Positions 3,729-18,089 of a stretch of 64,000 bases of DNA are shown here, piece after piece (positions within the stretch are counted from its first letter, which is position 1; the number at the start of each line of letters is the position of its first letter). Source of the stretch: an uncultured Acidobacteriaceae bacterium (GTDB taxonomy: Bacteria > Acidobacteriota > Terriglobia > Terriglobales > Acidobacteriaceae); assembly GCA_963838295.1 (NCBI GenBank), contig CAWIQS010000002.1, positions 19,156-83,155 of the forward strand, in the 5' to 3' direction. Under the pieces are notes generated by a model. The model ran no database searches. It was not told the origin of the DNA and saw only the letters and a list, made by a program, of their open reading frames with translations. The translations under genes were made by a program, and so were the position numbers.

Positions 3729-5252
3729 TTGGAGAACTTTGAAGATATTGTGTTCGAACCCTCTTCGCTGGACGCCGCAGAACTGCTTAACTTTGGAAAA
3801 ATTCTTGACCGTCGGCCTGACCAGTTGCACGGACACAATATTGTGACCGAACTTGCCCGGCAATTGCTGCGCGTACGAACCCGTTCTGGATTGACCTCGC
3901 CCCTGTGCGCCAATACCGTGCAGCAGGCGTTCGAAATGCAGCACGGAGCACGCAACATCGTACTCAAGGCGCGCCAGGTGGGGCTGACGACCTGGGCTGC
4001 CGCTCGATTCTTTCTCAAGACCATCACGCAGCCGGGAACGCTGACCTTGCAAGTGGCGCATACCCAGGAGTCAGCTGAAGAAATTTTCCGCATCGTGCAT
4101 CGCTTTCTCGACTACCTTCCCGATCATTTGCGCAAGGGGTGCCTGCGAACGTCGCGCGCCAATGTGCGGCAAATTGTCTTTCCAGAATTTGATTCCCAGT
4201 ACCGCGTGGTTTCCGCCGGCGAACGAAACGCCGGCCGCGGCATGACGGTGCAGAACCTTCACTGTTCCGAATTGGCGCGCTGGCCCGGCGATCCCGCCGA
4301 GATACTTGCAGGGTTGCGCGCCGCTCTCGCGCCGGATGGCGAAGAGATCCTGGAGTCAACGCCGAATGGTATCGGTGGATGCTTTTATGAGCAGTGGCAG
4401 ACCGCGCCAGAGACAGGAACCGTGCGCCATTTCTTCCCCTGGTGGATGGAACGGCGCTATCGTACCAAGGCCGTCGAAGAGAATTCCCTCACGGATGAAG
4501 AACGAATGCTCATGGCACATCATAGTCTCAGCCTTGCGCAGATCGGGTTTCGACGGAAGACGCAAACCAACTTTCGTGCAATGGCCCGGCAGGAATTCGC
4601 CGAAGATCCCGAGGGCTGCTTTCGCGCCAGCGGCGAATCCATCTTTGAATTGGCAGTGATCGAGCAGAGGCTTGCGTCGGCGCCCGCGCCGCTTGAGCTG
4701 CGCCGCAATGGAGAGTTCGAGATATGGCTTCCTTCCTTGCCTGGTAAGCAATACCTGGTTGCGGTGGACCCGGCGGGCGGTGGAAGCGACGGCGACTACT
4801 CCGCAATCGAAGTGCTGGAGATGGGGACCGGCCTCCAATGTGCCGAGTTTGCCGGTCATGTCGGCGGACTCGAACTGGCACAACTGGTGGCCAGCATCGC
4901 CGCCGAGTACAACAATGCGTGGGTCGTTGTGGAGCGCAACAATCACGGTCACGGCGTGCTTGCGCTCATTGAGAATGTCTGCCACTGCGTGCGGGTCTTC
5001 CAGCAGTCGGGCCAGTCGGGTTGGCCCACCACATCCGTGAGCCGGCCGGCAGCGATTGGGCAAATGAACGCGGGACTCATCGAGCAGCCGGATCACTTCA
5101 TGAGCAGACGACTCCTTGCGGAGTGCCGAAGCTTCGTCCGTCAACCGGATGGAAGCATGGGTGCACGCGCAGGCACGCACGATGACCGCGTAATGGCCAT
5201 GGCGATTGGCCTGGCAGCGCGCGCAGAATTGCTCGTGGCGCGAACCCCATAG
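3729..5252 (+). CDS. terL: Phage terminase large subunit (Terminase_6-like ATPase plus RNase H-like nuclease)
   Basis: Walker A-like LKARQVGLTT, Walker B-like LHCSE, nuclease motifs VAVDPAGG, VERNNHG, HDDRVMA; TTG start after GAGG. Confidence 0.9.
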   Translation: MENFEDIVFEPSSLDAAELLNFGKILDRRPDQLHGHNIVTELARQLLRVRTRSGLTSPLCANTVQQAFEMQHGARNIVLKARQVGLTTWAAARFFLKTITQPGTLTLQVAHTQESAEEIFRIVHRFLDYLPDHLRKGCLRTSRANVRQIVFPEFDSQYRVVSAGERNAGRGMTVQNLHCSELARWPGDPAEILAGLRAALAPDGEEILESTPNGIGGCFYEQWQTAPETGTVRHFFPWWMERRYRTKAVEENSLTDEERMLMAHHSLSLAQIGFRRKTQTNFRAMARQEFAEDPEGCFRASGESIFELAVIEQRLASAPAPLELRRNGEFEIWLPSLPGKQYLVAVDPAGGGSDGDYSAIEVLEMGTGLQCAEFAGHVGGLELAQLVASIAAEYNNAWVVVERNNHGHGVLALIENVCHCVRVFQQSGQSGWPTTSVSRPAAIGQMNAGLIEQPDHFMSRRLLAECRSFVRQPDGSMGARAGTHDDRVMAMAIGLAARAELLVARTP

Positions 5253-5364
5253 CGTGCCGTCAGTTGTCGAATCAACTGAGAGCTGACGGCCGAGAGCGAC
5301 AACTTGCACAGGGGTTTGCGAATTACAATCAGACTTGACTCCAACAGCAGGCAGGTAAACAGGC

Positions 5365-6237
5365 TTGGCAGTTCTGGCGGTGCAGCATATCCGACGCATG
5401 CGGGGTGGCGCACAGGGCCAGTTGATGCTGGGGGCGGACGGTCACGCGTACGTCGTCAAGTTCCAGAACAACCCTCAGCACATGCGCGTGCTGGCGAACG
5501 AATATCTCGCCTCCAAGCTTGCCACGGCGATGGGCCTCACAGCTCCGGTAGTTGAGTTGGTCGATGTCTCGCCCTGGATCATCGACAACACACCCGAATT
5601 GGAGATGGATCTCGGCCGCACCCGCCAGCGCTGCCAACCCGGACTGCAATTCGGGTCGCGCTTTGTCGGCGGCTTGATGCCCGGCCAGGTGGTCGACTAC
5701 CTGCCCGAGGAGCATTTAATTGCGGTAAAGAATCTGGGCGAGTTTGCCGGCATTCTTGCCCTTGATAAGTGGACCGGCAATGCCAACGGACGCCAGGCTG
5801 TGTTCACGCGTAAGGCCCGCGAACGCCGCTACCGCGCTGTATTCATCGATTTCGGGTACTGCTTCTTTGCCGGCGAATGGAAGTTTGAGGATGCGCCGTT
5901 GCGCGGCGTTTACTACCGCAACGACGTCTATCGCGAAATCACTGGATGGGGATCGTTTGAGCCCTGGCTCTCACGACTTGAAACCATGCCGGCCGAAACA
6001 GTCTGGGGCGCGGCGAATGAAGTGCCGCCCGAGTGGTACGGCGGCGATCTGTCAGAAATGGAAGCGCTGGTTGAGAAGTTGCTGGCGCGACGCAGCCGTA
6101 TTCGGGAGTTCATTGAGGCATTCCGGAATTCGGATCGCAAGCCCTTTCCCAATTGGGGCAATATGACCAACGAATCTTCCAGCGGGACATGGATTCCGGA
6201 CCGCTGGGGGTCTACTATCGTCGGCAGGATCATGTAG
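5365..6237 (+). CDS. HipA-like Ser/Thr kinase (HipA_2 type)
   Basis: Gly-rich loop MRGGAQGQL, YVVKF lysine, NEYLASKLA helix, catalytic-loop region DKWTGNANGRQ, IDFGYCF. Confidence 0.75.
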   Translation: MAVLAVQHIRRMRGGAQGQLMLGADGHAYVVKFQNNPQHMRVLANEYLASKLATAMGLTAPVVELVDVSPWIIDNTPELEMDLGRTRQRCQPGLQFGSRFVGGLMPGQVVDYLPEEHLIAVKNLGEFAGILALDKWTGNANGRQAVFTRKARERRYRAVFIDFGYCFFAGEWKFEDAPLRGVYYRNDVYREITGWGSFEPWLSRLETMPAETVWGAANEVPPEWYGGDLSEMEALVEKLLARRSRIREFIEAFRNSDRKPFPNWGNMTNESSSGTWIPDRWGSTIVGRIM

Positions 6238-6275
6238 GCAATGCCTGGCGCCGATGAACGAGGAAACGTGCAGCT

Positions 6276-7121
6276 ATGACGACCGACCATCAGCGACTCA
6301 ATTGTGAGTTTCAATTGTTGCGCTACGCGCCCGATCCGCTGCGCAACGAGTTCGTGCACGTGGGCGTGCTTCTGCGCGAGCAGGGCGCGCAAACGGATCC
6401 GCCCGCCATGGAACTGCGCTTTACGCGCGACTGGCGACGCGTACGCTGTCTCGATCCCGACGCCGACACCTCGGTGCTGGAAGGCATGGAAACCGAACTG
6501 CGCCAACGGCTCCGTCATGACCCCGACGGCAAGATGATGCGTATCCTCGATGAGGCACTTTCCCTTAATGTTCAAATGACAACTCCCAAGGCGTATCTGG
6601 CAGAGAGTCTTCCCGCCGGCGTCGAAGAGTTGATGCGCTTATACGTCGATCCGCCGAAGCGCGAACGCATGCCGCGGCTCAGCGGGCGTGCCGCCATCCA
6701 GTCAGTCATGCGCGCCGAATTTGAACATGCAGGCGTGTGGGACCTGCTGCGCAAGCGCATCCCGGCTTCCGATTACACGCGGCCCGGCGACCCCCTGCGC
6801 CTCGATGCCGGGTACAGGCCAAACGGGTTGATCCGCATGTTTCATGCCGTCAGCCTCGAGCCGGGCCTCGACCTTGCCAAGGTGCTTGCCTACTCCGCGG
6901 CGGGCCTGCGCACAGGTGTGAAATACAAGGAGAAAGCCGATCTTGAGTTGACGGCAATTATCGAGCCTGCCGCCAAACTCGGCGCCACTGACGACGATCC
7001 AGACCGCCTGGCGATGTACCGGTTTGGCGTCGAAACGATGGAAGAAAACCAGATTCGCGTACTGACCACTACTGATATGAGCCGCGTGGCTGAAACTGCC
7101 CGCCGCGAGCTGCACGTTTGA
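6276..7121 (+). CDS. DUF3037-like protein, partner of the HipA-like kinase
   Basis: N-terminal FQLLRYAPDPLRNEFVHVGVLL matches my recollection of the DUF3037 signature; directly downstream of the kinase. Confidence 0.7.
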   Translation: MTTDHQRLNCEFQLLRYAPDPLRNEFVHVGVLLREQGAQTDPPAMELRFTRDWRRVRCLDPDADTSVLEGMETELRQRLRHDPDGKMMRILDEALSLNVQMTTPKAYLAESLPAGVEELMRLYVDPPKRERMPRLSGRAAIQSVMRAEFEHAGVWDLLRKRIPASDYTRPGDPLRLDAGYRPNGLIRMFHAVSLEPGLDLAKVLAYSAAGLRTGVKYKEKADLELTAIIEPAAKLGATDDDPDRLAMYRFGVETMEENQIRVLTTTDMSRVAETARRELHV

Positions 7122-7155
7122 AACTGTCAAGAGCGTGCAGCCACAGGATCAAGGC

Positions 7156-7173
7156 CACTAAGTCGACTTAGTG
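7156..7173. promoter_or_regulatory. Perfect 18-bp palindrome, candidate operator upstream of the head operon
   Basis: CACTAAGTCGACTTAGTG is self-complementary; a partial repeat ACGACTTAGT follows at 7185-7194 in an AT-rich intergenic region. Confidence 0.5.
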
Positions 7174-7350
7174 TATGTTATGCAACGACTTAGTTACTTG
7201 AAAAATATATTTTGAAACTTTGCAGGTAATTATGCGCACATTTCGTAAGATAGATTCTGTTGAGAGCGAGAAAGATCATCTCAGCATGTAGCTCACGATT
7301 TTTGGAACAGTACGCTTCACGGATGACTGTTCACTGACAACTGATCACTG

Positions 7351-7393
7351 AAACAGAAAGGGCATGGTCCTGTAGACCATGCCCTTTCTGTTT
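7351..7393 (+). terminator. 19-bp perfect hairpin, terminator/attenuator-like, just before the portal gene
   Basis: AAACAGAAAGGGCATGGTC-CTGTA-GACCATGCCCTTTCTGTTT; the 3' arm ends in a T-rich tract. Confidence 0.65.
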
Positions 7394-7411
7394 CTAGAAG
7401 GAAGGTAACGC

Positions 7412-8686
7412 GTGAAGGTACGAGATCAACTGCGCATACTCTGGCGGCAGGCTACAGGCAGCGACCGTGTCGCCGTCGACGCGGCGGATGCCAACGCGGA
7501 ACGCAAGACTCTGGCACTGCCGTCGATTCTGAGCCCGGTGCAGTTTCCGGGGCAGTCCTTGCCAAAACCGACCCCCGTTAATCTGCGAAGGTTTGCCGAG
7601 ACTCCCGTGGTACGGCGCGCCATCAACGTCATCAAGGACCGGGTCGCGGCAATGGACTGGCAGGTACGGGTGCGGCGCGGATACGCTGCCGGCGAGGGTT
7701 GCGCTCCCAAAAATGCTGAAGAAACCAGCCGTCGCCTCCTTGTATTGCGACGCACTCTCGAAGAGCCCAATGCCGTCGACAGTTTTCGCACTTTGATCGA
7801 GCAAGTGATCGAGGACGCGTTGACCGGCGGCTATGGCGCGATCGAAATGGAGCCGACCGGCGATCCCGAGAGGCCCGCGATGCTGTGGCCGGTCGACGGA
7901 GCTTCGATCCGCATCAATCCGCGATGGGATGGCCAGCCCGACTCTCCGCGCTACGCGCAGGTTGCTCCCGGTCAGCTGGAATCAAGCGGTGTGGAACTTC
8001 GCGACAACCAGCTGATCTATGTGCGCATGAACCCGCGCAGTTTTACGCCCTTCGGACTCGGGCCGCTCGAGGTTGCATTCGAATCCGTCAATCAGTTTCT
8101 CAGCGCGCATCGTTTTGCCGGCAAGCTGGCGGCAAACTCGGTTGCGCAGTATGCACTCTGGCTCAATGAAGCAACCCCGTCGCAGCACGACCGGCTGATC
8201 CGCTGGTGGCAGGATGAGATCGAAGGGACGGGCCGCGTTCCGCTGATCTCGACAGAGCAGAAGCCGGAAGTCCTGCGTTTCGCCCAGGGCACTGACGCCG
8301 ATCTACGGATTGCATGGCAGGAGTTTCTCATTCGCATGATTGCCAACGCATTTGGCCTGCCGCCGTTGCTGCTCGGCCTTGAGAGCGATGTCAACCGTTC
8401 CACCGCCGCCGAACTGGCGGACGAAGCATTCCGCGGTGCGATTCTGCCGCTCGCACAATTGGTCGCAGGACACTTGACGCGCGATCTTTTTGGGAAATGC
8501 ATCGGCTGGCGAGAGTGCGAATTTGTCTTCAACGATCTCAATGCGCGCGACGAATCGACGGAACTTGCGGTCCAGGTTCAGCTCCTGCAGGCTGGGGTGT
8601 TGACCGTGGATGAAGTGCGCGCCATGCGGGGGCTGGCTCCACTCACGCCATCACCGATATCCGTCTCTCCTGAAATGAATCACTAA
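7412..8686 (+). CDS. Phage portal protein
   Basis: 424 aa; ETPVVRRAINVIKDRVA, LWPVDGASIR, FGLGPLE, IANAFGLPPLLLG, LTVDEVRAMRGL are HK97-type portal motifs. Confidence 0.9.
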   Translation: MKVRDQLRILWRQATGSDRVAVDAADANAERKTLALPSILSPVQFPGQSLPKPTPVNLRRFAETPVVRRAINVIKDRVAAMDWQVRVRRGYAAGEGCAPKNAEETSRRLLVLRRTLEEPNAVDSFRTLIEQVIEDALTGGYGAIEMEPTGDPERPAMLWPVDGASIRINPRWDGQPDSPRYAQVAPGQLESSGVELRDNQLIYVRMNPRSFTPFGLGPLEVAFESVNQFLSAHRFAGKLAANSVAQYALWLNEATPSQHDRLIRWWQDEIEGTGRVPLISTEQKPEVLRFAQGTDADLRIAWQEFLIRMIANAFGLPPLLLGLESDVNRSTAAELADEAFRGAILPLAQLVAGHLTRDLFGKCIGWRECEFVFNDLNARDESTELAVQVQLLQAGVLTVDEVRAMRGLAPLTPSPISVSPEMNH

Positions 8687-8758
8687 GCGGACATGGACAA
8701 TTCGGCCGCTTCGCCTCAACAGCGGTGCGGCCATTTTTCCGAGACAGGCGAAAACATT

Positions 8759-9259
8759 ATGCGATTAGAAGCAATGGCGGTAACGATTCCGCACGTCGAA
8801 GGGCATCCCAACCGGGTGCCGTTCGAAGGCGTGCTGACCGTAGTGAACTCAGCCAGCGATAAGCCGCCGGCCGGCGCGCGCGGTCATCGGGTGATGCTGA
8901 CACGAGAAGCCGCCGAAAAGGCTCTTCCCTCGCTGCTGGGCATGGCGGTGGATTATCGGCCGGGATGGGATGGGCACGACGCGCGCTGCAAGGTCGGTCT
9001 GCTTACTGAAGCCAGCCTTGCGGGCAATCGACTCGTTGTGCGCGGCTACATCTATGCGCGTGACTTTCCTGAAGTCTCCAGGACCATCGCGGTCCACGCG
9101 CCGGAATCGATGGGTATGAGTTATGAGTTAGCCGATGCGCGCGTGGAAGATATGCGTGCCGAGGTTTGGAAGTTGACGCGAGTCACGTTTACGGGCGCTG
9201 CCATTCTACTGCGGGAAAAGGCTGCGTATCGCGCAACCAGCTTCCGCATGGCGAGCTAA
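8759..9259 (+). CDS. Putative prohead maturation protease (HK97/S78-like)
   Basis: Position between portal and scaffold; GHDARCKVG (His) and GMSYE (Ser) resemble the HK97-type protease motifs. Start chosen at ATG 8759. Confidence 0.55.
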   Translation: MRLEAMAVTIPHVEGHPNRVPFEGVLTVVNSASDKPPAGARGHRVMLTREAAEKALPSLLGMAVDYRPGWDGHDARCKVGLLTEASLAGNRLVVRGYIYARDFPEVSRTIAVHAPESMGMSYELADARVEDMRAEVWKLTRVTFTGAAILLREKAAYRATSFRMAS

Positions 9260-9269
9260 CAAAACACAG

Positions 9270-9367
9270 TCGACAGTGAACAGTGAACAGTGAACAGTGG
9301 ATCGTCCCGCCATTCGGCAACGAGCTATACGGTCGCCCCACTGCACACTGTGCACTGTTCACTGTCA
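9270..9367. repeat. Heptamer-armed inverted repeat, (CAGTGAA)n ... (CACTGTT)n
   Basis: GACAGTGAACAGTGAACAGTGAACAGTGG after the protease stop and CCACTGCACACTGTGCACTGTTCACTGTCAC before the scaffold RBS. Confidence 0.85.
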
Positions 9368-9383
9368 CTTAGAAAGGAACACG

Positions 9384-9779
9384 ATGGAGAACAACGACAA
9401 CCAGATCATGGAACGAATGGAAGCGGCCACGAATCTGCTCGAAAGAACCCTTGCACTGCTGGAAGAACGCCAGCGTGCAGGCGAGGTGGAGAAGATCTCC
9501 GCAACCGTGGAGCAAACCAGGCGCGAAACGGAGTTGCAGGAGAAGCTTGCCGACGCTGAGCGCGAGATCGCGGAACTCAAGGCCGGAGCAGCGCAATCCG
9601 CGCTCAATCCGCTGCGCCGCACCATTCCCACCTCAACATCGGAGATGTTGGCCAAGCATGGCATCGCCGAAAAAGGGCCTGTTGACGTCCGCACCCTCGA
9701 TGCGGCGCTTGCCGGTCTAAGCCTCGAACAGCGCATCGCCGTCAAGAGCCAGTTGCTCCGCGCCGGCGCCATCAGCTAA
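9384..9779 (+). CDS. Putative capsid scaffolding protein (coiled coil)
   Basis: Glu/Arg-rich heptad helix, RBS AAAGGA before ATG 9384, located between protease and capsid. Confidence 0.5.
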   Translation: MENNDNQIMERMEAATNLLERTLALLEERQRAGEVEKISATVEQTRRETELQEKLADAEREIAELKAGAAQSALNPLRRTIPTSTSEMLAKHGIAEKGPVDVRTLDAALAGLSLEQRIAVKSQLLRAGAIS

Positions 9780-9794
9780 AAACCGCCAACAGAA

Positions 9795-9870
9795 AACAGG
9801 GAACAGTGAACAGTTCGCGCTGATCGCGCGCCGCTGCTAACTGTTCACTGCCCACTGATCACTGTCCACT
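9795..9870. repeat. Heptamer-armed inverted repeat between scaffold and capsid genes
   Basis: ACAGGGAACAGTGAACAG ... CTGTTCACTGCCCACTGATCACTGTCCAC. Confidence 0.8.
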
Positions 9871-9903
9871 TTTACATCGGCCCCATGGAGGGGGCGAGAC
9901 ACT

Positions 9904-10872
9904 ATGAACGCATCTTTCGCAGACATCCACGCGGCAGCCGACTTCATCGGACCCGGCGCAATCGAAGTTCCCTTATATCAGACCGAGATCTTCGACATCT
10001 GCCGCCGCTCCAGTCCGTTCGGCCAGCGCATCAAGCAGGTTCCGGCCACCGGCCATCCGTCGCGCTTCTTTGAAGAGACGGCATTGCCCAATCCCGGCAC
10101 CGCGGGCTTCGTCAATCCACGCAGCATTGTCGCCCCGGTCGTCAGTCCCACACGTGTAGAACGCAGCGTGCCGCTGAAGGCGATCGTGTCGCAGATCAAC
10201 TACAACCTCTTCGATGTCGAACTCGGCAATCAGCAGCAGCAGTTCGCCTATCTGCAGGCGAAAGACCTGGTCGACACCGTCAATGGCGTGATGCTCGCGC
10301 ACGACGTGGCGCTGTGGAACGGCAACGACACCAGTCTCAGTTCGCCAACTACCACGCAATACATGGGTGCTGTTCCGCAGATCGTTTCCGGCGGCCTGAC
10401 CACGACAATCGGCACCTCGGCCTCCATCGTCGACGGCATTAAGTCAGCCGTGGCGCAAATGGTGGCGAACAACGGATATCAAGTTCGTCCCACGGCCATC
10501 TATGCCAACCCGGTGCTGCTTGACCTGATCGACCGCGAGATGAAGACCGAGTTCAACGTCGTACTCAACTCCGACCAGATCACCGGCGGTTTCCGCGTGA
10601 AGATGCTGTCGACGCAGGCAGGCGACTTGCCTCTGATTCCAGATTGGAGCCTGAGCTACACGGGCACTCCGGGTTCCGGATCGGCTGTGTTGCCCGCGTA
10701 CATCGTGACCGAGGACCTGATCGAATATCACTGGCTCGGCGATCCGGCTCCGCGCATCTTTCAGCTCGGCATGCCTGGCTCTCTCACGCAGCAGTATGTA
10801 GCCGTCAAGTTCGGCGCAATCGTCGTGAAGGGCGCGAACTACGCGCACTACCAGGTGCTCGTGGACCGCTAG
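9904..10872 (+). CDS. Major capsid protein (HK97 fold, predicted)
   Basis: 322 aa, canonical position after scaffold; ALWNGND and PTAIYANPVLL resemble capsid motifs; RBS GGAGG. Confidence 0.7.
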   Translation: MNASFADIHAAADFIGPGAIEVPLYQTEIFDICRRSSPFGQRIKQVPATGHPSRFFEETALPNPGTAGFVNPRSIVAPVVSPTRVERSVPLKAIVSQINYNLFDVELGNQQQQFAYLQAKDLVDTVNGVMLAHDVALWNGNDTSLSSPTTTQYMGAVPQIVSGGLTTTIGTSASIVDGIKSAVAQMVANNGYQVRPTAIYANPVLLDLIDREMKTEFNVVLNSDQITGGFRVKMLSTQAGDLPLIPDWSLSYTGTPGSGSAVLPAYIVTEDLIEYHWLGDPAPRIFQLGMPGSLTQQYVAVKFGAIVVKGANYAHYQVLVDR

Positions 10873-10879
10873 AGCGATC

Positions 10880-10991
10880 CACAGTGGACAGTGAACAGTG
10901 GTCAGTGGACAGAGCCCGCAGCGTCTTTACCGGGTTCGCCGTTCACTGTTCACTGTTCACTGCTCACTGTGCACTGCGCACTGTTCACTGA
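10880..10991. repeat. Heptamer-armed inverted repeat between capsid and adaptor genes
   Basis: CACAGTGGACAGTGAACAGTGGTCAGTGGACAG ... TTCACTGTTCACTGTTCACTGCTCACTGTGCACTGCGCACTGTTCACTG. Confidence 0.85.
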
Positions 10992-11011
10992 ACCCTGTTC
11001 CGGAGGAATAC

Positions 11012-11635
11012 ATGCCCTACCTGCAACCTGCCGACTACAGCAATTATGGATTGCCCGACGGTACTTCCGCCAACTGGATTACTGCCGCGACTGCACTGAT
11101 CAATAGTTTCTGCCGTCGCCCAGATCTCAATATCACGCAATACACAGAGCGCCTCCGGGTTGTCAGCGGATCGCGCACGGTGCGGCTCAGTTATTTGCCC
11201 CTGGCGCCGCTCCGCAGCGCCAACACGCCACTGGTCAGCCTCGAAGGCCGCTATGCGAAACCGCGGCGCGGCGAGGCAATCGACAACGCGCTCGCCGAAA
11301 TTGCCTTTGCCTTTTCGCTTCCCGGCCAGTGGACCGCCATTGATCCCGCCACCGTGGATTTCGATCCGAACACGGGCGAGCTTACTCTACCCTGGAACGT
11401 CTTCGGCTTGCCATTCAACGAAATCTCTGCGACCTACACGGCCGGCCTCGCCACCATCGGCGACGACATAAAAACCGCATGTGCGCAGATCGTCCGCAAT
11501 GCGCAGTCGACACCGGCGCTGAACGCCAGCAAAACGAAGATCGACACGATGCAGATGCAGTACTTCTCAAGTTCGCTGGTGGATGAAACCGTGCAGGCCT
11601 GGTTGCGTCCCTATGTCGCGAACAGGCTGGGGTGA
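11012..11635 (+). CDS. Head-tail connector/adaptor-like protein
   Basis: MPYLQP..., AATALINSFCRR, ATYTAG, DDIKTACAQIV resemble gp6/gp15-type adaptors; RBS GGAGG before ATG 11012. Confidence 0.6.
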   Translation: MPYLQPADYSNYGLPDGTSANWITAATALINSFCRRPDLNITQYTERLRVVSGSRTVRLSYLPLAPLRSANTPLVSLEGRYAKPRRGEAIDNALAEIAFAFSLPGQWTAIDPATVDFDPNTGELTLPWNVFGLPFNEISATYTAGLATIGDDIKTACAQIVRNAQSTPALNASKTKIDTMQMQYFSSSLVDETVQAWLRPYVANRLG

Positions 11636-11638
11636 ACG

Positions 11639-12073
11639 ATGAGCGATACAGCACCACGCAATCCGGTCAGCGCGCCGCAGATGCTTGCCGATGCGCTGCT
11701 ACGCAGCGTTGCCGGTACCACCGCGCAACTGCGCGTGACGGGAACGACCACCGATTCGAATCAGTCCGAGGTCGGCCTGGTGGCGACCACCTTTAGTCAG
11801 GTCGTGATCAGTCCAGTCGTGATGCGCAAGCTTCGCCCAACGATCAAAGAGGCCGATGCGCCGCGCTGGGAGTTGCTGGCCTCGGCCACCGGCGTCCAGG
11901 CTCAGGTAAATGCGCTCGATCTGTCGTCGGCGCAGGCCTTGTTTGCGTTGACTCTGGCCGTCACCATCAGCGGACATGATTACCTCATAGAGTCAGTCGC
12001 ATCCAATGAGGCCTTCGGCCAGGTTTATCTATACCGGCTCTCACTACGAGAGGCTTGCGTGCAATCACTTTAA
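11639..12073 (+). CDS. Putative head-closure/neck protein
   Basis: 144 aa, position after the adaptor, C-terminal beta pattern HDYLIESV...YLYRLSLRE. Confidence 0.4.
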   Translation: MSDTAPRNPVSAPQMLADALLRSVAGTTAQLRVTGTTTDSNQSEVGLVATTFSQVVISPVVMRKLRPTIKEADAPRWELLASATGVQAQVNALDLSSAQALFALTLAVTISGHDYLIESVASNEAFGQVYLYRLSLREACVQSL

Positions 12074-12161
12074 ATTGGGCAGTGCACAAAGATCAGAGAT
12101 CCAATAGGTGGCGGCTATACACCTGATAACTGACCTCTGCTCACTGACCATTGGAGTTCTC

Positions 12162-12647
12162 ATGCAAAACGCGAAAGATTCTTTTTACCTGGCGCTCCGC
12201 ACGCGCCTCACCACGATCAATCCAGAACGAACAGTGCTGCTGCGTGGTGCACTGCGCCCCGGCATTCTTGTCGAAGAGGCTGAGGCGCCACTTGCGCAAC
12301 TACCGTCCGACGTCTTCATTCTGCGTTGGCTGGGGCTCGGCGTCGACACGGATCTAAGTTCCGCGATGGCGGCAGCAGATTGCGAAATCCTCTACGGCAC
12401 ATGCGGCACACAGGCATTCGGCGGGCTCGATCGCGGACGCATGCTGAGCGCCATGGACCAGGAAGTGATGGCCATGCTCGAGCCTTTCTACACACCCAAA
12501 CTCAATTACTCCGTTCAACCCGCGACCGCCATGCAAACGCACGTCTTCTGGGATGAGCCGACTTTTGCGCCCATCAATGTTCAGCGCGACCGGCTCAGCC
12601 GCTCTGTGCGCGTCATGGTCTACAGCTATCAGGAGCAGGGGGAATAA
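12162..12647 (+). CDS. Putative tail terminator/completion protein
   Basis: Size and position before the putative tail tube; start ATG 12162 after GGAG; stop overlaps next start. Confidence 0.35.
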   Translation: MQNAKDSFYLALRTRLTTINPERTVLLRGALRPGILVEEAEAPLAQLPSDVFILRWLGLGVDTDLSSAMAAADCEILYGTCGTQAFGGLDRGRMLSAMDQEVMAMLEPFYTPKLNYSVQPATAMQTHVFWDEPTFAPINVQRDRLSRSVRVMVYSYQEQGE

Positions 12648-13621
12648 TGACAGCTACCTCGTTTGCAGCACCCGCGCCGGTTGCGCGGCGCATGCGCGCC
12701 TACTTTGCCCCCGTGAATCGCATTACGCAGACTCCGGTGCTCTTCGATCCTTCGCAATCAAGTTCGTTTAGTCTCGACGCGCCGCCGTCTCCGTGGATCG
12801 ACCTGGGCTGGATTCAAAACTTCACGCGCAAGCCCACAGGCAAGAGTGGTCCCATCCTTGCCGGCATCCCCGCCGCGCCGCTGGAACAGACACGTGCCTC
12901 GCTCGAGGCTCAACTGAGCTTTGAGTTTCTTGGATGGACAAAGCTGACAATGGCGCTCGCAACAGGCTCGCAGCATATGAACCTGCTGGCTCCCGCTACC
13001 GGTGCAACGTCCGCCGCGGATGGCGCGAAGGCAGCCCCGGCAGCAACCATCCAGATCGGCTCGACTGCGTCCGTCATTCAGCTCGCCACAGCTGACGCGG
13101 CCAACTTCGTCCCTGGCTCCATGATCGCGGTCGATGCGGACTACACAGGTCAGACAGGCTATCTCGGATCTCCGGTCTCCGGCACTTACGTGCGCCAGCC
13201 GCTTACTGATGTTGATTACATCCGACGCATCACCTTCAATGTCGCGCTCGTGCTCGGGGTGAGTACAACGAGCTTGATTCTCGCGCAGCCTCTACCGGGA
13301 GGAGCACCCGCAGCAGGCACAAAACTGCAAGCTATCACCGGCTTTGTCGATCGCGAAGGCGGCAGCTTTTATCACGAGTGGTCGGCGCTCTTTGTTATGC
13401 AGGGTGGCCAGGGCGATCGCATCTTCTTTCACTACCCCCGGCTGCAAAGTATCGCTGGAGCAGAAGAGTCCGCAACACCGCTCGACAACAAGCATCAGGG
13501 AGGACTTGCGCGCATTCTGCTCAAAGGTCAGTTCCTCGCGCTCCCCGTCACCGACCCTCTCGATGGCGAACGCGTGCTCTGCTACCGCAGTTTCAAGCCG
13601 GCAGCTTATGCGCAAATTTGA
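12647..13621 (+). CDS. Putative major tail (tube-like) protein
   Basis: 324 aa following the neck genes, beta-rich; assigned mainly by synteny. Confidence 0.35.
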   Translation: MTATSFAAPAPVARRMRAYFAPVNRITQTPVLFDPSQSSSFSLDAPPSPWIDLGWIQNFTRKPTGKSGPILAGIPAAPLEQTRASLEAQLSFEFLGWTKLTMALATGSQHMNLLAPATGATSAADGAKAAPAATIQIGSTASVIQLATADAANFVPGSMIAVDADYTGQTGYLGSPVSGTYVRQPLTDVDYIRRITFNVALVLGVSTTSLILAQPLPGGAPAAGTKLQAITGFVDREGGSFYHEWSALFVMQGGQGDRIFFHYPRLQSIAGAEESATPLDNKHQGGLARILLKGQFLALPVTDPLDGERVLCYRSFKPAAYAQI

Positions 13622-13684
13622 ACCTGGACTCTCTCAAGCAATGAATATCTTCACGATAACTGCTGCAGGATTCGGACGAACACT

Positions 13685-15997
13685 ATGAAGATTACGATTG
13701 GCGGACAAGACTATACCTCAGCGCTCGACGCGACGCATCCATTGACCATTGAGCGCAAACTCAATGAGCCGTCCGTCTGCCAGCTATGGGTAGCTTTGCC
13801 CACAAACGACTCAGCGACCTTGATGCGCAATCAGCCAATCCAGGTAACCGGCGACGACGGAACTAATTACTTCACCGGCTATCTCGCCGCGAGCCCGATG
13901 CCGGAGTATGCTGGGCTGGGTCTCGAAGGCCCGCGCTATCGCTTCGCGCTCGAGGCCATCAGCGATGAATATCTTCTCGATCAGTTGCCCATGGCGTCGG
14001 GCAAAGGCGCTGCGGGATTGAATGCGGGTCCGCTTCTTTCCTCCCTGGTAGCAAAGACCGGATCGATCGCTATTTCAACCCAGGCGCTCTCGCTCACTAC
14101 TCCCGTTTCCACTTTCACGCCCGCGCCCGGCGCATCGTTCAGCACTGGAGCTGGTGCCGCGTCAAACGAGGCCTGCGCTGCGTACCGTGCAGCAAACGGT
14201 GCTATCACCCTTGCCACAATTCCCGCTGCCATTCACGTTCTCGACGAAACCCAGGGAAACCTGGCGCTCGGCAATCTCGCGCTTTCCGCCGGCGTAAAAC
14301 GCGCTCTCGCCAATGACATCACGGTCTGCGGAGAGCATGAGCCAACGGCGTATGTAACCGAATACTTTCTCGGTGATGGCGTCACCACGCAATTCAACCT
14401 CTCTTCCGATGCCTTTGCGCTGCCGCCCTCACGGTCAACCATCATTCGCGAGTTATTCAATGAAGGACAGATCGACCTTCGTCTCTGGGGCAACCCGGGT
14501 AGTCATAACTATCTGTCGCTCGGGGCAAGCGGACTTAGCATGCAGGGTGGAACCGGAAGGGACGGAGATACGCAGTTAGCCTGGATCGATCCGGTGGAGA
14601 TGGGCGGGACGCTGTTGCTCGAGGCGATTGGTGTGACTCTCGCGAACGGAAGCACTGGAATGCTCGCCGGCCTTTTCAACGGGGAGCAAACGCAGCCGGG
14701 ATGTACGGCGGGATTTCAGGTTACCGCGCAGCAAGGCACGGGGGCCGTTGCCGTGCAGCCGTTCGTGATGGGATTGCCAACAGGCAGTTTGTATCCGATC
14801 AATCCGGCCAATCAATATACGTTGCGTCTGCGCGTGCATTGTCCGGAGTGCGAACGCGGGCTCGCTGTCTATCGGAGTTACTCTGACGGCGGGACCGTGA
14901 GCTATGGCGGTCAATGGAATATCGCTCCAGCTAATTTGCTTTTCGAGATCCAGGAGTTTGTGAGCGGCGTCGCGGGCATGCCAGTCATTTTGTATAACGG
15001 CCAAGTCGTAAGCCTACCGGGCGCAGGCACGGTGGTCGCAGCCAGCTGCATCAACCTTGTAGGTACGATGCGCGCATTGAATCTAAGCAATCTTGGATCA
15101 GGCTGGGTTGTCACAACGCCTGCTGGCGGCGCTCCGTCGACACGTCGCACCGGAACCACCGCCCAGGCAGCCGAGTGTCACGTCGAAAGCACGGGCAGAC
15201 TCATCTTCTATACAGGATTCGCTCCACCGGCAGGCGAGCAGATCGCTGTCAGCTATCGCGCCATGGGCAGATCGGTCGGGCGTAGTGTGAACACCGCCAG
15301 TCAGCAAGCTCTGGCGCAGGCCGGTTTGCCTTCTGTCTCGGCATGGCTCGGCTCGGTAACCAGTCCCGCGCCACGAAGTTCGCAGGATTGCCGCAACGCT
15401 GCGCTTGTAATGCAAATGGGAGCTACCAGCGTAAGCGCACTATGGAGCGGAACATACAAATGCACGCGCGCATCGCTCGACGCCGACGTGTGGCCGGGGG
15501 ATGCACTGCAACTGAATGCGCCCTCAGCTAACCTGAACGCTCAGGTGGTGGTCCGCAACGTTACGCTGAGTTACGCGGCAACCTATCCCGACCTGGTGCA
15601 GTACGCAATTGCCTTCGCGAATGATTGGGCCGATGATCTGGCAATCAAAACAAGCGCTTCCGTTCCCGGCGACACATGGTTGCCAGCTGCCATTTCGCCA
15701 ACCTATCTTCCCAATTTAAATGCCCTCGCGGTAGCAACAATGACCGGGGCCAACGTGATCATTAATGCCGGAGCCACTGCCCCGAGCGGCGGGGGATTCG
15801 AGATACGCCGCCGCGACAATTGCTTCATGCCCGGTGCTGATCCTGACGTGGTGATGCGCGGTTCGCAATCGACCATGACCTTCGCCCGGACTTCAGCCAG
15901 TGATCGGTTCTATATAAGGATGTACAACGGATCGACTCCACCGAATTATTCCGAGTTCTCAGCAGCGCTCATCTTCAACCTGCCTCTGGGCATTTGA
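13685..15997 (+). CDS. Large tail/hub-like structural protein
   Basis: 770 aa, beta-strand rich; N-terminus MKITIGGQDYT...LTIERKLNEPS resembles tail hub proteins. Confidence 0.45.
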   Translation: MKITIGGQDYTSALDATHPLTIERKLNEPSVCQLWVALPTNDSATLMRNQPIQVTGDDGTNYFTGYLAASPMPEYAGLGLEGPRYRFALEAISDEYLLDQLPMASGKGAAGLNAGPLLSSLVAKTGSIAISTQALSLTTPVSTFTPAPGASFSTGAGAASNEACAAYRAANGAITLATIPAAIHVLDETQGNLALGNLALSAGVKRALANDITVCGEHEPTAYVTEYFLGDGVTTQFNLSSDAFALPPSRSTIIRELFNEGQIDLRLWGNPGSHNYLSLGASGLSMQGGTGRDGDTQLAWIDPVEMGGTLLLEAIGVTLANGSTGMLAGLFNGEQTQPGCTAGFQVTAQQGTGAVAVQPFVMGLPTGSLYPINPANQYTLRLRVHCPECERGLAVYRSYSDGGTVSYGGQWNIAPANLLFEIQEFVSGVAGMPVILYNGQVVSLPGAGTVVAASCINLVGTMRALNLSNLGSGWVVTTPAGGAPSTRRTGTTAQAAECHVESTGRLIFYTGFAPPAGEQIAVSYRAMGRSVGRSVNTASQQALAQAGLPSVSAWLGSVTSPAPRSSQDCRNAALVMQMGATSVSALWSGTYKCTRASLDADVWPGDALQLNAPSANLNAQVVVRNVTLSYAATYPDLVQYAIAFANDWADDLAIKTSASVPGDTWLPAAISPTYLPNLNALAVATMTGANVIINAGATAPSGGGFEIRRRDNCFMPGADPDVVMRGSQSTMTFARTSASDRFYIRMYNGSTPPNYSEFSAALIFNLPLGI

Positions 15998-16107
15998 GAG
16001 CAACCATGAACAGTGGACGGTCTTATGCCACCCGGCACTGCTCATGACCGAAGACTACTCACAACTCTGAACTAAAAACTACGGACTGTGAATGCACGGA
16101 GTGCCGG

Positions 16108-16335
16108 ATGCGCATGATGAACGAATTTGAAGCACAGGTGCTGAGCGACCTGAACGTATTGAAGACCCAGATGAACAGCTTGATGGGCGACGGAAACGGC
16201 GGACGAATCGCCGAACTCGAACACCGCATGGAGCGCCACGAACAGAACTGGCAACGCGCCAAGGGGTTTTTGGCGGCATTCAGCGTGCTGCTCGCAGTCG
16301 CAGAGATTGCGGCCGAGGCATGGCATCGGCATTAG
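16108..16335 (+). CDS. Small membrane protein, holin-like position and shape
   Basis: Coiled N-terminus plus one C-terminal hydrophobic helix (GFLAAFSVLLAVAEIAA); last gene of the cluster. Confidence 0.4.
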   Translation: MRMMNEFEAQVLSDLNVLKTQMNSLMGDGNGGRIAELEHRMERHEQNWQRAKGFLAAFSVLLAVAEIAAEAWHRH

Positions 16336-16410: not shown

Positions 16411-16899
16411 ATGAGCGAGAAGCCGTTAGTCGGCGTGGTCATGGGCAGCAAAAGCGATTACGAAGTGTTGTCAGCGGCCGTAGAGATCTTGCAGACGCTC
16501 GAAATTCCGCACGAGGCCCGTATCGTCAGCGCGCATCGCACACCTGATTGGCTCTTCAAATATGCTGAAAAAGCGCGCGAACGCGGCCTCCGCATCATCA
16601 TTGCCGGAGCGGGCGGCGCGGCGCATCTGCCGGGCATGCTTGCGTCAAAGACGCTGGTACCCGTGCTCGGCGTTCCGGTATCCGCCACGCAACTCAACGG
16701 CCTTGATTCCCTGCTCTCGATTGTGCAAATGCCCAAGGGTGTTCCCGTCGGAACGCTTGCCATCGGCAAACCGGGCGCAGCCAACGCCGCGCTGCTTGCG
16801 GCCGAGATTCTTGCCGCGACCGACTCCGCACTCTACGACCGGCTGGCCGCCTGGCGCGCCGCGCGAACTGAAGAAGTAATGAAGCAGGAGCTGCCTTAG
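16411..16899 (+). CDS. purE: N5-carboxyaminoimidazole ribonucleotide mutase
   Basis: VVMGSKSD, SAHRTP, AGAGGAAHLPGM, SIVQMPKGVPVGT. Confidence 0.97.
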   Translation: MSEKPLVGVVMGSKSDYEVLSAAVEILQTLEIPHEARIVSAHRTPDWLFKYAEKARERGLRIIIAGAGGAAHLPGMLASKTLVPVLGVPVSATQLNGLDSLLSIVQMPKGVPVGTLAIGKPGAANAALLAAEILAATDSALYDRLAAWRAARTEEVMKQELP

Positions 16900-18089
16900 T
16901 GTCTGAAGAGTCTCCCCAGAATAAGAAAGTACCGGTGATCGAACCCGGCGGCCTGATCGGCATCCTCGGCGGTGGCCAGCTAGGCCGAATGACCGCCATG
17001 GCCGCGCGCACCATGGGTTATCGCGTCCGCGTTATGGATCCCGAAGCCAAGTGCCCAGCATGCTTTGTTGCGGACCAGACCATCGTGGGGAAGTGGGACG
17101 ATGTTGCCGCCGCGCAAAAACTGGCGAAGGGCGCCGATGCCGTCACGCTTGAGATCGAGCAGATCGGTGTAGATGCGCTGAGCGAAGTTGCCAAAATGGC
17201 GCCGCTCCGCCCTGGCGTCGAACCCATCCGCATTATCCAGGACAAAATCTTGCAAAAAACCTGGCTCGCCGAAAACGGATTTCCGGTCGGCCCCTTCCGC
17301 ATCATCCGCAACGAAGACGAACTTCATCATGCCGTAAAGGTGCTCGCCGGGCGGGTTTTCCTCAAGATCGGGCGCGGTGGATACGACGGCCGCGGCCAGG
17401 CACGCATCGGCATGGAAGCGTTGCTGAACAAGCAGATCGTCACGGATGCATGGACCAGCGTCGGTGAAAGCCCGTCCGTCGCCGAGCAGGCGCTTGACCT
17501 CGCTACCGAGATCAGCGTGATGGCCGCGCGCAGTCCTTCAGGCGAAGTGCGCACATATCCCGCTGCACGCAATCATCATGAAAATCAGATCCTCGCGTGG
17601 AGCGTGCTGCCTTCAGGCATCGCACCGGAAATCGAAGCCCGCGCAGAAAAACTGGCAGCGTCTATCATCGAGAAACTTGGCATCGAAGGGTTGCTTTGCG
17701 TGGAAATGTTCCTCACGCGCCAGGGCCGTCTGCTGATCAATGAACTTGCGCCGCGCCCGCACAACAGTTATCACCAGAGCGAGCGCGCCTGCGTAACCAG
17801 CCAGTTTGAACAACTGGTGCGGACGACATGCAATCTGCCGTTGGGGGATACGTCGCTGATCACGCCAGCCGCGATTGTGAATCTGCTCGGCGACATCTGG
17901 CTCACCTCAACGCCCAACCTTCCCGCGGCGCTTGAGGTTCCGGGCGTGCGCCTGCACCTTTACGAGAAGCGCTCCGCCAAAATGGGGCGCAAGATGGGGC
18001 ACCTTTCAGCGGTAGGCGCAACGCCGGAGGAAGCCCTGGAGCGCGCGCTCGAAGCAAAGCAGCGGCTATTGGTGCCGGCGCGTAAGTGA
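16899..18089 (+). CDS. purK: N5-carboxyaminoimidazole ribonucleotide synthase
   Basis: IGILGGGQLGRM, GGYDGRGQ, NELAPRPHNS, GRKMGHL; translationally coupled to purE. Confidence 0.95.
   Translation: MSEESPQNKKVPVIEPGGLIGILGGGQLGRMTAMAARTMGYRVRVMDPEAKCPACFVADQTIVGKWDDVAAAQKLAKGADAVTLEIEQIGVDALSEVAKMAPLRPGVEPIRIIQDKILQKTWLAENGFPVGPFRIIRNEDELHHAVKVLAGRVFLKIGRGGYDGRGQARIGMEALLNKQIVTDAWTSVGESPSVAEQALDLATEISVMAARSPSGEVRTYPAARNHHENQILAWSVLPSGIAPEIEARAEKLAASIIEKLGIEGLLCVEMFLTRQGRLLINELAPRPHNSYHQSERACVTSQFEQLVRTTCNLPLGDTSLITPAAIVNLLGDIWLTSTPNLPAALEVPGVRLHLYEKRSAKMGRKMGHLSAVGATPEEALERALEAKQRLLVPARK

What the first reader, a model, noticed from the sequence alone, without database searches (positions are those of the whole stretch)
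3729..16335. Compact phage head-neck-tail cluster fused to purEK: candidate domesticated prophage or new GTA-like element
Seen: a ~12.6-kb co-oriented set of terL, portal, protease, scaffold, capsid, neck/tail genes and one holin-like ORF. It ends 75 bp before purE with no integrase, tRNA, att-like repeat, repressor or replication gene at this boundary. All ORFs are intact, and the intergenic gaps carry heptamer repeats also found among host genes at 37395 and 39358. Established: the R. capsulatus GTA head-tail cluster is of similar size, lacks replication/integration genes and is vertically inherited. Inference: a long-resident, host-controlled virion module (GTA, killer particle or similar), not a recent prophage. 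I cannot see what lies left of base 1.
Basis: partly seen in the sequence, partly recalled or inferred. Interest (0 to 1): 0.85.

Follow-up and report, generated by a model that had tools for sequence, protein, structure and literature searches.

The report
Domesticated phage-particle gene cluster, Acidobacteriaceae
A 19.6-kb set of virus head, DNA-packaging and tail-tip genes has been inherited vertically at one chromosomal site, intact and under strong selection, by most genera of the soil family Acidobacteriaceae, so it is a host-owned particle maker (most likely like a gene transfer agent) whose real function has not been shown.

Summary
The phage-like genes are real, but the block is larger than reported: about 19.6 kb. 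It starts 3.2 kb left of the window with a small ORF and a 1946-aa fibre protein.

Shown here:
- TerL has invariant ATPase and nuclease residues.
- The portal is of the HK97 family, and the capsid protein has an HK97 fold.
- There is a head-tail adaptor and a Mu gp44/VgrG-type tail hub.
- A HipA-like kinase + DUF3037 pair, a validated defence module, lies between terL and portal.
- The labels protease, scaffold and holin are not confirmed.

There is no integrase, tRNA, att repeat, repressor or replication gene at either edge.

The capsid gene is single-copy in 182 of 301 family genomes (106 of 142 genera). It is absent from about 230 genomes of other Acidobacteriota families. The cluster is collinear in 20 genomes of 11 genera, and every gene has dN/dS of 0.02-0.18. 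The cluster tree tracks RpoB (Mantel r = 0.86). One lineage has terL and the fibre gene 1.4 Mb from the rest, and two species carry an internal deletion scar at the locus.

A GTA-like function is the leading guess but is untested.

The parts
1..3477 (+). C-terminal 1158 aa of a 1946-aa fibre or tailspike-like protein ('giant'). The gene starts at own-genome C2:16792, 2363 nt left of the window.
   Evidence: The ORF runs from L001:16792 into the window. It gives a weak pectate-lyase-like hit and PHROG tail-protein hits. The N-terminal ~200 aa are conserved across 11 genera, ~1070 aa within the genus, and the rest is variable.
3729..5252 (+). Large terminase subunit (TerL)
   Evidence: PHROG 2, E 8e-26. 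Weak match to T4 gp17 in the PDB. Walker A (K80 R82 Q83 G85 T88), Walker B with catalytic E181, and nuclease D347, E402, D485/D486 are invariant in 19 genomes of 11 genera. dN/dS is 0.11.
5365..6237 (+). HipA-like Ser/Thr kinase (toxin-type component)
   Evidence: PF20613 HipA_2, 36.3 bits against a cut-off of 27. PADLOC PDC-M66A, E 6.8e-8. Present inside the cluster in 19 of 20 genomes examined.
6276..7121 (+). DUF3037 protein, partner of the kinase
   Evidence: PF11236, 55.7 bits against a cut-off of 22.6. PADLOC PDC-M66B, E 7e-6. The literature describes HipA-like + DUF3037 as a validated defence pair in which DUF3037 neutralises the kinase (PMC12548924, PMC13092281).
7361..7395 (+). Strong hairpin (terminator-like) after an AT-rich spacer, just before the portal gene
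   Evidence: Read directly in the sequence.
7412..8686 (+). Portal protein, HK97 family
   Evidence: PF04860, E 7.5e-52. The only PDB sequence match is the RcGTA portal Rcc01684, E 1.7e-6. Single copy in 31 of 36 species of the genus.
8693..9259 (+). g188, function unknown. It sits where a prohead protease would. The conserved part starts at M23 (nt 8759).
   Evidence: No Pfam, PHROG or PDB hit. It has 55-89% identity to the window's copy across 11 genera, with invariant H38 and several invariant Ser. dN/dS is 0.06.
9297..9779 (+). g160, scaffold candidate (charged, helical). The likely true start is M30 (nt 9384); the listed N-terminus is a translated heptamer repeat.
   Evidence: Position between portal and capsid, and composition. 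Homologues align only from residue ~26-40 onward. No family hit.
9904..10872 (+). Major capsid protein, HK97 fold
   Evidence: Foldseek: 139 PDB hits at E<=1e-3, and the top 50 are all HK97-fold capsids or encapsulins. The model has pLDDT 53. Single-copy in 182 of 301 family genomes. dN/dS is 0.02. No sequence-family hit.
10898..11635 (+). Head-tail adaptor. The likely true start is M39 (nt 11012).
   Evidence: phrog_442, E 7.2e-17. Weak PDB match to an adaptor gp8.
11639..12073 (+). g144, neck protein candidate (unknown)
   Evidence: Conserved in 18 of 20 genomes. No family hit.
12108..12647 (+). g179, neck or tail-terminator candidate (unknown). The conserved part starts at M19 (nt 12162).
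   Evidence: Conserved in all 20 genomes. No PDB or family hit.
12647..13621 (+). g324, tube-type or distal-tail protein candidate
   Evidence: Conserved in all 20 genomes. Only a faint hint: 2 of 19 family members hit phrog_476 'major tail protein', best E 0.0011. No PDB hit.
13685..15997 (+). Tail hub or tail-tip protein: gp27 / Mu gp44 / VgrG-type N-terminal domains plus a ConA-like jelly-roll domain
   Evidence: AF2 pLDDT 84.8, pTM 0.81. Foldseek PDB hits include the PVC central spike (9.7e-8), Mu gp44 (1wru, 1.9e-7), and the T5 and DT57C hubs. In BFVD, 263 hits at E<=1e-3; the named ones among the top 50 are mostly tail or minor tail proteins of long-tailed phages, and most have no name.
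16108..16335 (+). g75, a small coiled-coil protein with one C-terminal hydrophobic helix (holin-like or membrane-anchored; unproven)
   Evidence: Sequence. 42-93% identity in 16 of 20 genomes. Kept even in the deletion scars.
9273..10990 (.). Period-7 tandem arrays (ACAGTGA, ACAGTGG, GTTCACT types) in the spacers at 9273-9299, 9346-9369, 9795-9870, 10881-10912 and 10941-10990. Another lies at 7317-7351.
   Evidence: TRF. Genome-wide there are 250 such arrays; the cluster holds 6 against 0.75 expected.
16411..18089 (+). purE and purK, host genes that mark the right edge (not part of the element)
   Evidence: PF00731 and PF02222.

Best explanation
This is a domesticated, chromosomally fixed set of tailed-phage genes. 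It was acquired near the base of the family Acidobacteriaceae and has since been inherited vertically.

Shown:
- It encodes a DNA-packaging motor (TerL), a portal, an HK97-fold capsid protein, an adaptor, a gp27/VgrG-type tail hub and a giant fibre with a variable tip.
- All of these are kept intact by purifying selection.
- It has no genes for integration, replication or lysogeny.
- Its parts can lie at separate loci.

Inferred:
1. On a host signal the genes are switched on. The Sigma70_r4 protein encoded beside the cluster in other genera may deliver that signal.
2. Procapsids form on the portal.
3. TerL fills them by headful packaging. No recognisable small terminase was found, so sequence specificity should be low and the cargo mostly host DNA.
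4. A very short tail is added: adaptor, two neck proteins, one tube-type ring and the hub. There is no tape measure.
5. The fibres bind surface polysaccharide of related cells.

The most likely use is gene-transfer-agent-like delivery of host DNA to kin. The embedded HipA-like kinase/DUF3037 pair is an old passenger. It either defends against phages or arrests the producer cell.
For: Distribution:
- The capsid gene is single-copy in 182 of 301 family genomes and 106 of 142 genera, at 69-93% identity.
- At phylum scale it is in 19 of 21 family genomes and in none of ~230 genomes from other families.
- More than 564 loci were found among GTDB species genomes.

Fixed locus and order:
- The cluster is collinear in 10 species of the genus. 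It lies next to purE (or BipA where purE is missing) in all 10, and the asparaginase was found on the left in 4.
- It is collinear in 10 other genera, with purEK adjacent in 5.
- Only one internal stop was found, in 6 gene families checked across those 20 genomes.

Selection and co-divergence:
- Against the closest relative, dN/dS is 0.02-0.18 for every gene. dS is 0.34-0.92, against 0.41-0.52 for purE, purK and BipA.
- The tree of 7 cluster proteins shares its major clades with the RpoB tree. Mantel r = 0.86, p = 1e-4.

No mobility:
- No integrase, tRNA or att repeat at either edge.

Host-style genome evolution:
- In G020 and G025 the block of small ORF, fibre and TerL is intact but lies ~1.37 Mb from the rest.
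- The Sigma70_r4 gene lies within 3 kb upstream of the cluster in all 10 other genera. It is unlinked in this genus.
- Cluster-negative species G475 and G028 keep an internal deletion scar at the same locus.
- Host heptamer repeats fill the spacers.

Functional parts:
- TerL catalytic residues are invariant.
- The capsid and hub folds are supported.
Against: - No particle, packaged DNA or transfer has been observed.
- No small terminase, endolysin or tape measure was identified.
- Six of the fifteen genes counted as part of the cluster have no assigned function.
- The capsid assignment rests on a low-confidence model (pLDDT 53).
- The Sigma70_r4 gene also persists in 18 of 26 capsid-negative genomes, so it is not exclusive to the cluster.
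- About a third of family genomes lack the capsid gene, so the element is dispensable.
- A 19.6-kb cluster might fit into its own capsid, which would make self-packaging possible.
Confidence: 0.55

Rival explanations
1. The particle system is domesticated and vertically inherited as above, but its selected function is not gene transfer. It could be a PBSX-like killer particle aimed at competitors through the fast-evolving fibre. It could be an anti-phage device, for example a decoy or abortive system built around the HipA-like kinase. It could also be a means of releasing DNA or lysing cells for biofilm or nutrient purposes.
For: The evidence for domestication is the same. The fibre tip is hypervariable and has a polysaccharide-lyase-like domain, as in bacteriocin-type specificity determinants. 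A validated defence pair is embedded and conserved in 19 of 20 clusters. The hub carries a lectin or lyase-like jelly roll.
Against: TerL ATPase and nuclease residues are invariant and under dN/dS ~0.1, so DNA packaging is itself selected. A pure killer or decoy would not obviously need that, although PBSX also packages DNA. No toxin or effector gene is seen apart from the kinase.
Confidence: 0.33
2. It is an ordinary temperate prophage or a phage satellite (for example a capsid-forming PICI) that still moves between genomes and happens to prefer this site.
For: IMG/VR lists 30 contigs with this capsid, and the three checked (G536-G538) are classed 'provirus'. Eichorst et al. 2018 grouped what may be the same regions as 'Cluster 153' prophages. 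A block-swapped gene order exists in some lineages.
Against: There is no integrase, att, repressor or replication gene. It is single-copy at the same locus across genera, with dS equal to that of neighbouring host genes. The tree is congruent with RpoB. The loci are split in G020 and G025. Loss is by internal deletion and leaves both ends, not by clean excision. Most IMG/VR hits are short fragments or long chromosomal contigs.
Confidence: 0.04
3. It is a decaying cryptic prophage remnant with no function, which has not yet been deleted.
For: About one third of family genomes lack the capsid gene. Four genus genomes show a split portal. One tail-hub (g770) copy has an internal stop. Two species carry an 18-kb deletion.
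Against: The ORFs are intact in 20 genomes of 11 genera, although the synonymous divergence is saturating. dN/dS is 0.02-0.18 in every gene, as low as in purE, purK and BipA. The capsid protein is as conserved as BipA.
Confidence: 0.03

Closest known systems
RcGTA-type gene transfer agents of Alphaproteobacteria (Rhodobacter capsulatus GTA; viriforms)
   Same: Both are chromosomal head-tail-packaging clusters of 15-20 kb without integration, replication or lysogeny genes. Both are inherited vertically across a large clade under purifying selection. In both, parts and the regulator can lie at other loci. Both have an HK97-family portal and an HK97-fold capsid. The RcGTA portal is the only PDB portal matched by sequence.
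   Different: The origin is independent. Only the portal shows weak similarity (30 bits). Here there is no tape measure, no tail-tube module and no recognisable TerS. The fibre is a giant 1946-2915-aa protein encoded upstream of terL. A HipA-like/DUF3037 pair is embedded. The phylum differs (Acidobacteriota), and no CtrA/GafA-type control is known. DNA packaging and transfer are shown for RcGTA and not here.
FpGTA of Faecalibacterium (PMC12946183)
   Same: Both are compact GTA-type clusters outside the Proteobacteria with a head module and short-tail-type proteins. Both are conserved across a genus or wider, and in both the genes can be spread over two loci.
   Different: FpGTA has experimental support: 40-nm particles, ~8.5-kb host DNA fragments and proteomics. 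It has lysis genes in a second operon. No sequence relationship was tested or seen here. The present cluster is family-wide and about twice as long.
PBSX-type defective prophages (phibacins) of Bacillus
   Same: Both are chromosomally fixed, non-propagating phage-derived particles that still package host DNA. Both offer a possible killer function with strain specificity set by the tail fibres.
   Different: PBSX has a long contractile tail, a repressor and SOS control, and lysis genes. None of these was found here.
'Cluster 153' acidobacterial prophages (Eichorst et al. 2018, PMC5900883)
   Same: These are probably the same regions. The group consists of prophage calls in Terriglobus, Terracidiphilus gabretensis and other Acidobacteriaceae that clustered only with each other and with soil contigs.
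   Different: That paper treats them as likely active prophages of a new viral group. Conservation of locus, selection and lack of mobility genes were not analysed there. The identity with this cluster was not tested here. Their group also includes Koribacter, whereas I found no capsid homologue outside the family.

Membership tests
Gene transfer agent (viriform), general definition | Virion structural and packaging genes in the host chromosome without genes for integration, excision, replication or lysogeny | tested here: met
   TerL, portal, capsid, adaptor and hub are present. There is no integrase, tRNA or att at either edge. The neighbours are the asparaginase and purE.
Gene transfer agent (viriform), general definition | Vertical inheritance across a clade with purifying selection | tested here: met
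   Found in 106 of 142 genera. Same order and locus. dN/dS 0.02-0.18 with host-like dS. Mantel r 0.86 against RpoB.
Gene transfer agent (viriform), general definition | Particles package more or less random host DNA in pieces too short to carry the whole cluster | not testable with these tools
Gene transfer agent (viriform), general definition | Delivery of the packaged DNA to recipient cells with recombination | not testable with these tools
   An experiment is required.
Gene transfer agent (viriform), general definition | Production under host regulatory control | tested here: inconclusive
   A Sigma70_r4 protein gene lies within 3 kb upstream in all 10 other genera and is unlinked in this genus. 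It also persists in 18 of 26 capsid-negative genomes. No expression data are available.
RcGTA-type GTA (Rhodogtaviriformidae) | Homologous head-tail cluster with TerS, tail tube, tape measure, distal tail, hub and megatron genes in RcGTA order | tested here: not met
   No tape measure or tube module is present. Only the portal gives a weak PDB match to RcGTA (30 bits). The other proteins have no sequence match.
Temperate prophage | Integrase or att sites, repressor, replication and lysis modules; patchy distribution and variable insertion sites | tested here: not met
   (none present). (fixed locus, family-wide). (split loci).
Capsid-forming phage satellite (cf-PICI type) | Integrase-bearing mobile island with its own capsid and packaging genes but no tail genes, dependent on a helper phage | tested here: not met
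   There is no integrase. The cluster has its own adaptor, hub and fibre genes. Inheritance is vertical.
HipA-like kinase + DUF3037 defence pair (PADLOC PDC-M66; DS-6/HipAD) | Adjacent genes for a HipA_2-type kinase and a DUF3037 protein | tested here: met
   PF20613 at 36.3 bits (cut-off 27) and PF11236 at 55.7 bits (cut-off 22.6). PDC-M66A and PDC-M66B at E 6.8e-8 and 7.1e-6. Defence activity of this copy was not tested.

The most novel reading that the evidence does not exclude
This is an independently evolved, family-wide gene transfer agent of Acidobacteriaceae, and so a new viriform family in a dominant soil phylum. Its architecture is unusual: an HK97-type head joined through a neck directly to a gp27/VgrG-type hub, with no tape measure and at most one weakly supported tube-type protein (g324). 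It carries giant fibres with exchangeable tips. The embedded HipA-like kinase/DUF3037 pair has been co-opted to control the fate of producer cells.
Probability: 0.4. Interest if true: 0.88.

Novelty: new variant of a known kind. Interest (0 to 1): 0.78.

Why it matters
Acidobacteriaceae are among the most abundant soil and peat bacteria, and almost nothing is known about how they exchange genes. A conserved, host-owned DNA-packaging particle in most of their genera would be a candidate route of gene flow, or of competition, in soils.

It would add an independent origin of GTA-like elements outside the Proteobacteria and Firmicutes. It would also explain why soil and peat virome surveys keep calling this chromosomal region a 'provirus' or part of a 'core virome'.

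The question is directly testable, because cultured Terriglobus, Granulicella, Edaphobacter and Acidobacterium strains exist.

The embedded kinase pair and the tube-less tail are features not described for any known GTA.

Tried and rejected
- Pfam and PHROG scans of the ORFs without an assigned function found nothing usable for g188, g160, g144, g179, g324, g75, o98 and o111.
- Profile searches of the PDB with family alignments of the capsid, g770, g188, g179 and g324 gave no significant hit.
- PHROG scans of ten distant full-length capsid relatives from the representative library found no capsid family. The capsid call therefore rests on fold alone.
- The 'protease' label could not be supported.
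- No att-like repeats were found at the edges.
- The sigma-70 promoter and terminator scan was no better than shuffles.
- Rfam found nothing in the window.
- I tested whether the Sigma70_r4 gene is lost together with the cluster. The link is only partial: 16 of 16 positive genomes against 18 of 26 negative ones.
- I first read three IMG/VR contigs as a circular permutation, which would have meant a free circular genome. I rejected this. Each has one portal, and the g770 homologue follows it, so the order is a swap of two blocks inside a chromosome.
No expression, coverage or junction evidence could be obtained.
- I could not test whether Eichorst's 'Cluster 153' is the same element.
Full report
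**What is there.**
The window is own-genome contig C2:19156-83155. The names sources give to near-identical proteins and contigs place it in Terracidiphilus, family Acidobacteriaceae.

Profile searches identify four things.
- TerL at 3729-5252 (PHROG 2, E 8e-26).
- An HK97-family portal at 7412-8686 (PF04860, E 7.5e-52).
- A head-tail adaptor at 10898-11635 (phrog_442, E 7e-17).
- Between terL and portal, a HipA-like kinase (PF20613) and a DUF3037 protein (PF11236).

The kinase and DUF3037 proteins match PADLOC candidate system PDC-M66A/B. This pair has been shown experimentally to be a stand-alone anti-phage system, in which DUF3037 neutralises the kinase (PMC12548924, PMC13092281).

The other ORFs have no sequence-family match.

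**Extent and edges.**
The ORF at 1-3477 is the end of a 1946-aa protein that begins at C2:16792. It gives weak pectate-lyase-like and phage tail-protein hits.
- Its first ~200 residues are conserved across genera.
- About 1070 residues are conserved within the genus.
- The rest is variable.
This is the pattern of a fibre or spike with an anchoring N-terminus and an exchangeable tip.

A small ORF (o111) precedes it. That ORF is conserved in the genus and moves with the fibre gene.

The block therefore spans about 19.6 kb, from just after a host asparaginase gene to 75 nt before purE.

Upstream of the asparaginase lie host genes: Imm48, GNAT, Maf, GH31, RNase R and SRAP. An integrase with a PrimPol gene sits next to tRNA-Pro 10.5 kb from the cluster and forms a separate small element. 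The two edges of the cluster share no word of 10 bases or more.

**Structure-based assignments.**
- Capsid (g322). An AlphaFold model from 32 sequences was poor (pLDDT 53). Even so, all top 50 Foldseek PDB hits, of 139 at E<=1e-3, are HK97-fold capsid proteins or encapsulins. The call 'major capsid protein' is reasonable but rests on fold alone.
- Tail hub (g770). The 770-aa protein modelled well (pLDDT 84.8, pTM 0.81). Its N-terminal ~230 residues match the central hub or spike family: Mu gp44, PVC and AFP spikes, VgrG, and the T5 and DT57C hubs. A middle domain is a ConA-like jelly roll.
- g324. It gives only a faint hint of a major-tail (tube-type) protein.
- There is no tape measure or sheath gene.

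The inferred particle has an HK97-type head, an adaptor, two small neck proteins, perhaps one tube-type ring, a hub and long fibres. The labels protease (g188), scaffold (g160) and holin (g75) remain positional guesses.

**TerL is functional by sequence.**
Walker A, Walker B with the catalytic glutamate, and the three acidic nuclease residues are invariant in 19 genomes of 11 genera.

**Distribution.**
- The portal is single-copy in 31 of 36 species of the genus. It is absent from 24 genomes of the sister family.
- The capsid gene is single-copy, at 69-93% identity, in 182 of 301 genomes of the family and in 106 of 142 genera.
- In a phylum-wide sample it is in 19 of 21 family genomes and in none of about 230 genomes from other families. 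The order-level sample agrees.
- More than 564 loci were found among GTDB species genomes.
- Only 325 clusters at 50% identity, among 1.84 billion proteins, match the capsid profile.

**Synteny.**
In 10 other species of the genus the order is the same: fibre, TerL, kinase, DUF3037, portal, g188, g160, capsid, adaptor, g144, g179, g324, hub, g75. The cluster lies next to purE (or BipA where purE is missing) in all 10, and the asparaginase was found on the left in 4.

In 10 other genera the order is again the same, and purEK is still adjacent in five. Six gene families were checked for stops across these 20 genomes, and only one internal stop was found.

**Selection and co-divergence.**
Against the closest relative (locus L055), every cluster gene has dN/dS between 0.02 (capsid) and 0.18 (fibre). 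dS is 0.34-0.92. The flanking purE, purK and BipA have dN/dS of 0.02-0.08 and dS of 0.41-0.52.

A maximum-likelihood tree of seven concatenated cluster proteins shares its major clades with an RpoB tree of the same genomes. Pairwise distances correlate (Mantel r = 0.86, p = 1e-4), and the cluster evolves about 3.9 times faster than RpoB. Within the genus the correlation is weak (r = 0.29). RpoB has little resolution there, so some recombination cannot be excluded.

**Signs that the host genome owns it.**
1. Split loci. In two species (G020, G025) the small ORF, a 2915-aa fibre and an intact TerL (69% identity) lie about 1.37 Mb from the rest of the cluster.
2. A linked regulator candidate. A protein with a Sigma70 region-4 domain (PF04545, 34 bits against a cut-off of 24) is encoded within 3 kb upstream of the fibre gene in all 10 other genera. 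In this genus its single homologue is unlinked. Here it is at C1:229300-229815, between dnaB and an aldehyde dehydrogenase gene. It is a candidate activator. It also persists in 18 of 26 capsid-negative genomes, so the link is suggestive only.
3. Deletion scars. Two cluster-negative species of the genus (G475, G028) keep asparaginase, o111 (and o98 in G475), fibre codons 1-116 joined to hub codons 748-770, g75, purE and purK. Loss was by internal deletion and left both ends. It was not a clean excision.
4. Host repeats. Period-7 repeats fill the spacers, 6 arrays against 0.75 expected. The listed N-termini of g160 and the adaptor are translations of these repeats.
5. Rearrangement. In some lineages two blocks inside the cluster have swapped places, while the hub gene stays last.

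**Interpretation.**
A recent or active prophage, a satellite and a decaying remnant are each contradicted by several independent results. What remains is a domesticated particle-forming system that still packages DNA.

Gene transfer is the leading function by analogy with RcGTA and with the recently shown FpGTA. A killer particle or a defence-related role fits the variable fibre and the embedded kinase pair about as well.

By gene content and sequence the cluster is not a member of the RcGTA family. The only link is a 30-bit portal match.

**Literature.**
No paper in the searchable library describes a GTA-like or domesticated element in this family. Eichorst et al. 2018 grouped probable copies as 'Cluster 153' prophages. 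A Sphagnum virome study found a shared 'viral' contig that maps to Acidobacteriaceae chromosomes.

Earlier agents of this scan, working on other genomes of the family, reached the same reading. I consulted their notes after my own tests, and they are not independent evidence.

Noticed in passing
window 38030-39250 (and own genome C3:211099-212365): This is an IS3-family copy whose 3' part has lost almost all cytosines on the + strand: 7 C in 651 nt, with GC skew +0.49. Against the intact copy on contig C3, 188 of 191 substitutions are at C (C>T 121, C>A 55, C>G 12). It is either a basecalling or assembly artefact, or strand-specific hypermutation.
   Followed up: partly
loci L206 (G475:C25) and L207 (G028:C4), homologous to window 1-16335: Two cluster-negative species share the same deletion junction (...GAGTAC-C-GACGG...) between fibre codon 116 and hub codon 748. 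The scar sequences nevertheless follow species relatedness, and the window's genome, which has an intact cluster, is closer to G475 than G028 is. Either the same deletion happened twice at a TAC microhomology, or this is an old polymorphism or a case of recombination.
   Followed up: partly
L139/L168 (G536), L141 (G537), L147/L169 (G538): In some other genera the cluster is block-swapped: [g188..g324] [fibre-TerL-kinase-DUF3037-portal] [hub]. There is one portal per contig, and the hub homologue is confirmed by hhalign.
   Followed up: yes
L001:2140-5399 (own genome C2, 13.8-17 kb left of the window): A separate small integrated element holds a tyrosine integrase next to tRNA-Pro(GGG) and a PrimPol/PriCT primase gene. 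Host genes separate it from the cluster.
   Followed up: no
L001:14412-14816: An Imm48 polymorphic-toxin immunity gene stands alone beside the asparaginase. No toxin gene was seen nearby.
   Followed up: no
window 37392-37565 and 39359-39409; 10881-10990: The heptamer arrays come as inverted pairs: (GGTCAGT/GGACAGT)x25 on one side and the reverse-complement type on the other. They could form long hairpins. The pair at 37.4/39.4 kb flanks the IS copy. Genome-wide there are 250 period-7 arrays, mostly AACAGTG or ACAGTGG types.
   Followed up: partly
window 37620-37700, 37860-37970, 39290-39335: Short repeats starting GTCAT(C/T)CTGA(A/G)CGAA..., with GGGGCCCC cores, recur in the spacers near the IS copy. 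They look like MITEs or REP elements.
   Followed up: no
L036:1511-3844 (G066): This is the only internal stop found among the cluster genes checked in 20 genomes. It is in the hub homologue, at residue 411.
   Followed up: no
L205:8080-8304 and loci upstream of the fibre gene in 6 other genera: A small ORF with a CxxC...CxxC zinc-ribbon-like motif lies just upstream of the Sigma70_r4 gene in 6 other genera (G092, G108, G144, G165, G174, G189). An ORF stands in the same position in the window's own genome, but I did not check whether it is homologous or carries the motif. It has no Pfam hit.
   Followed up: no
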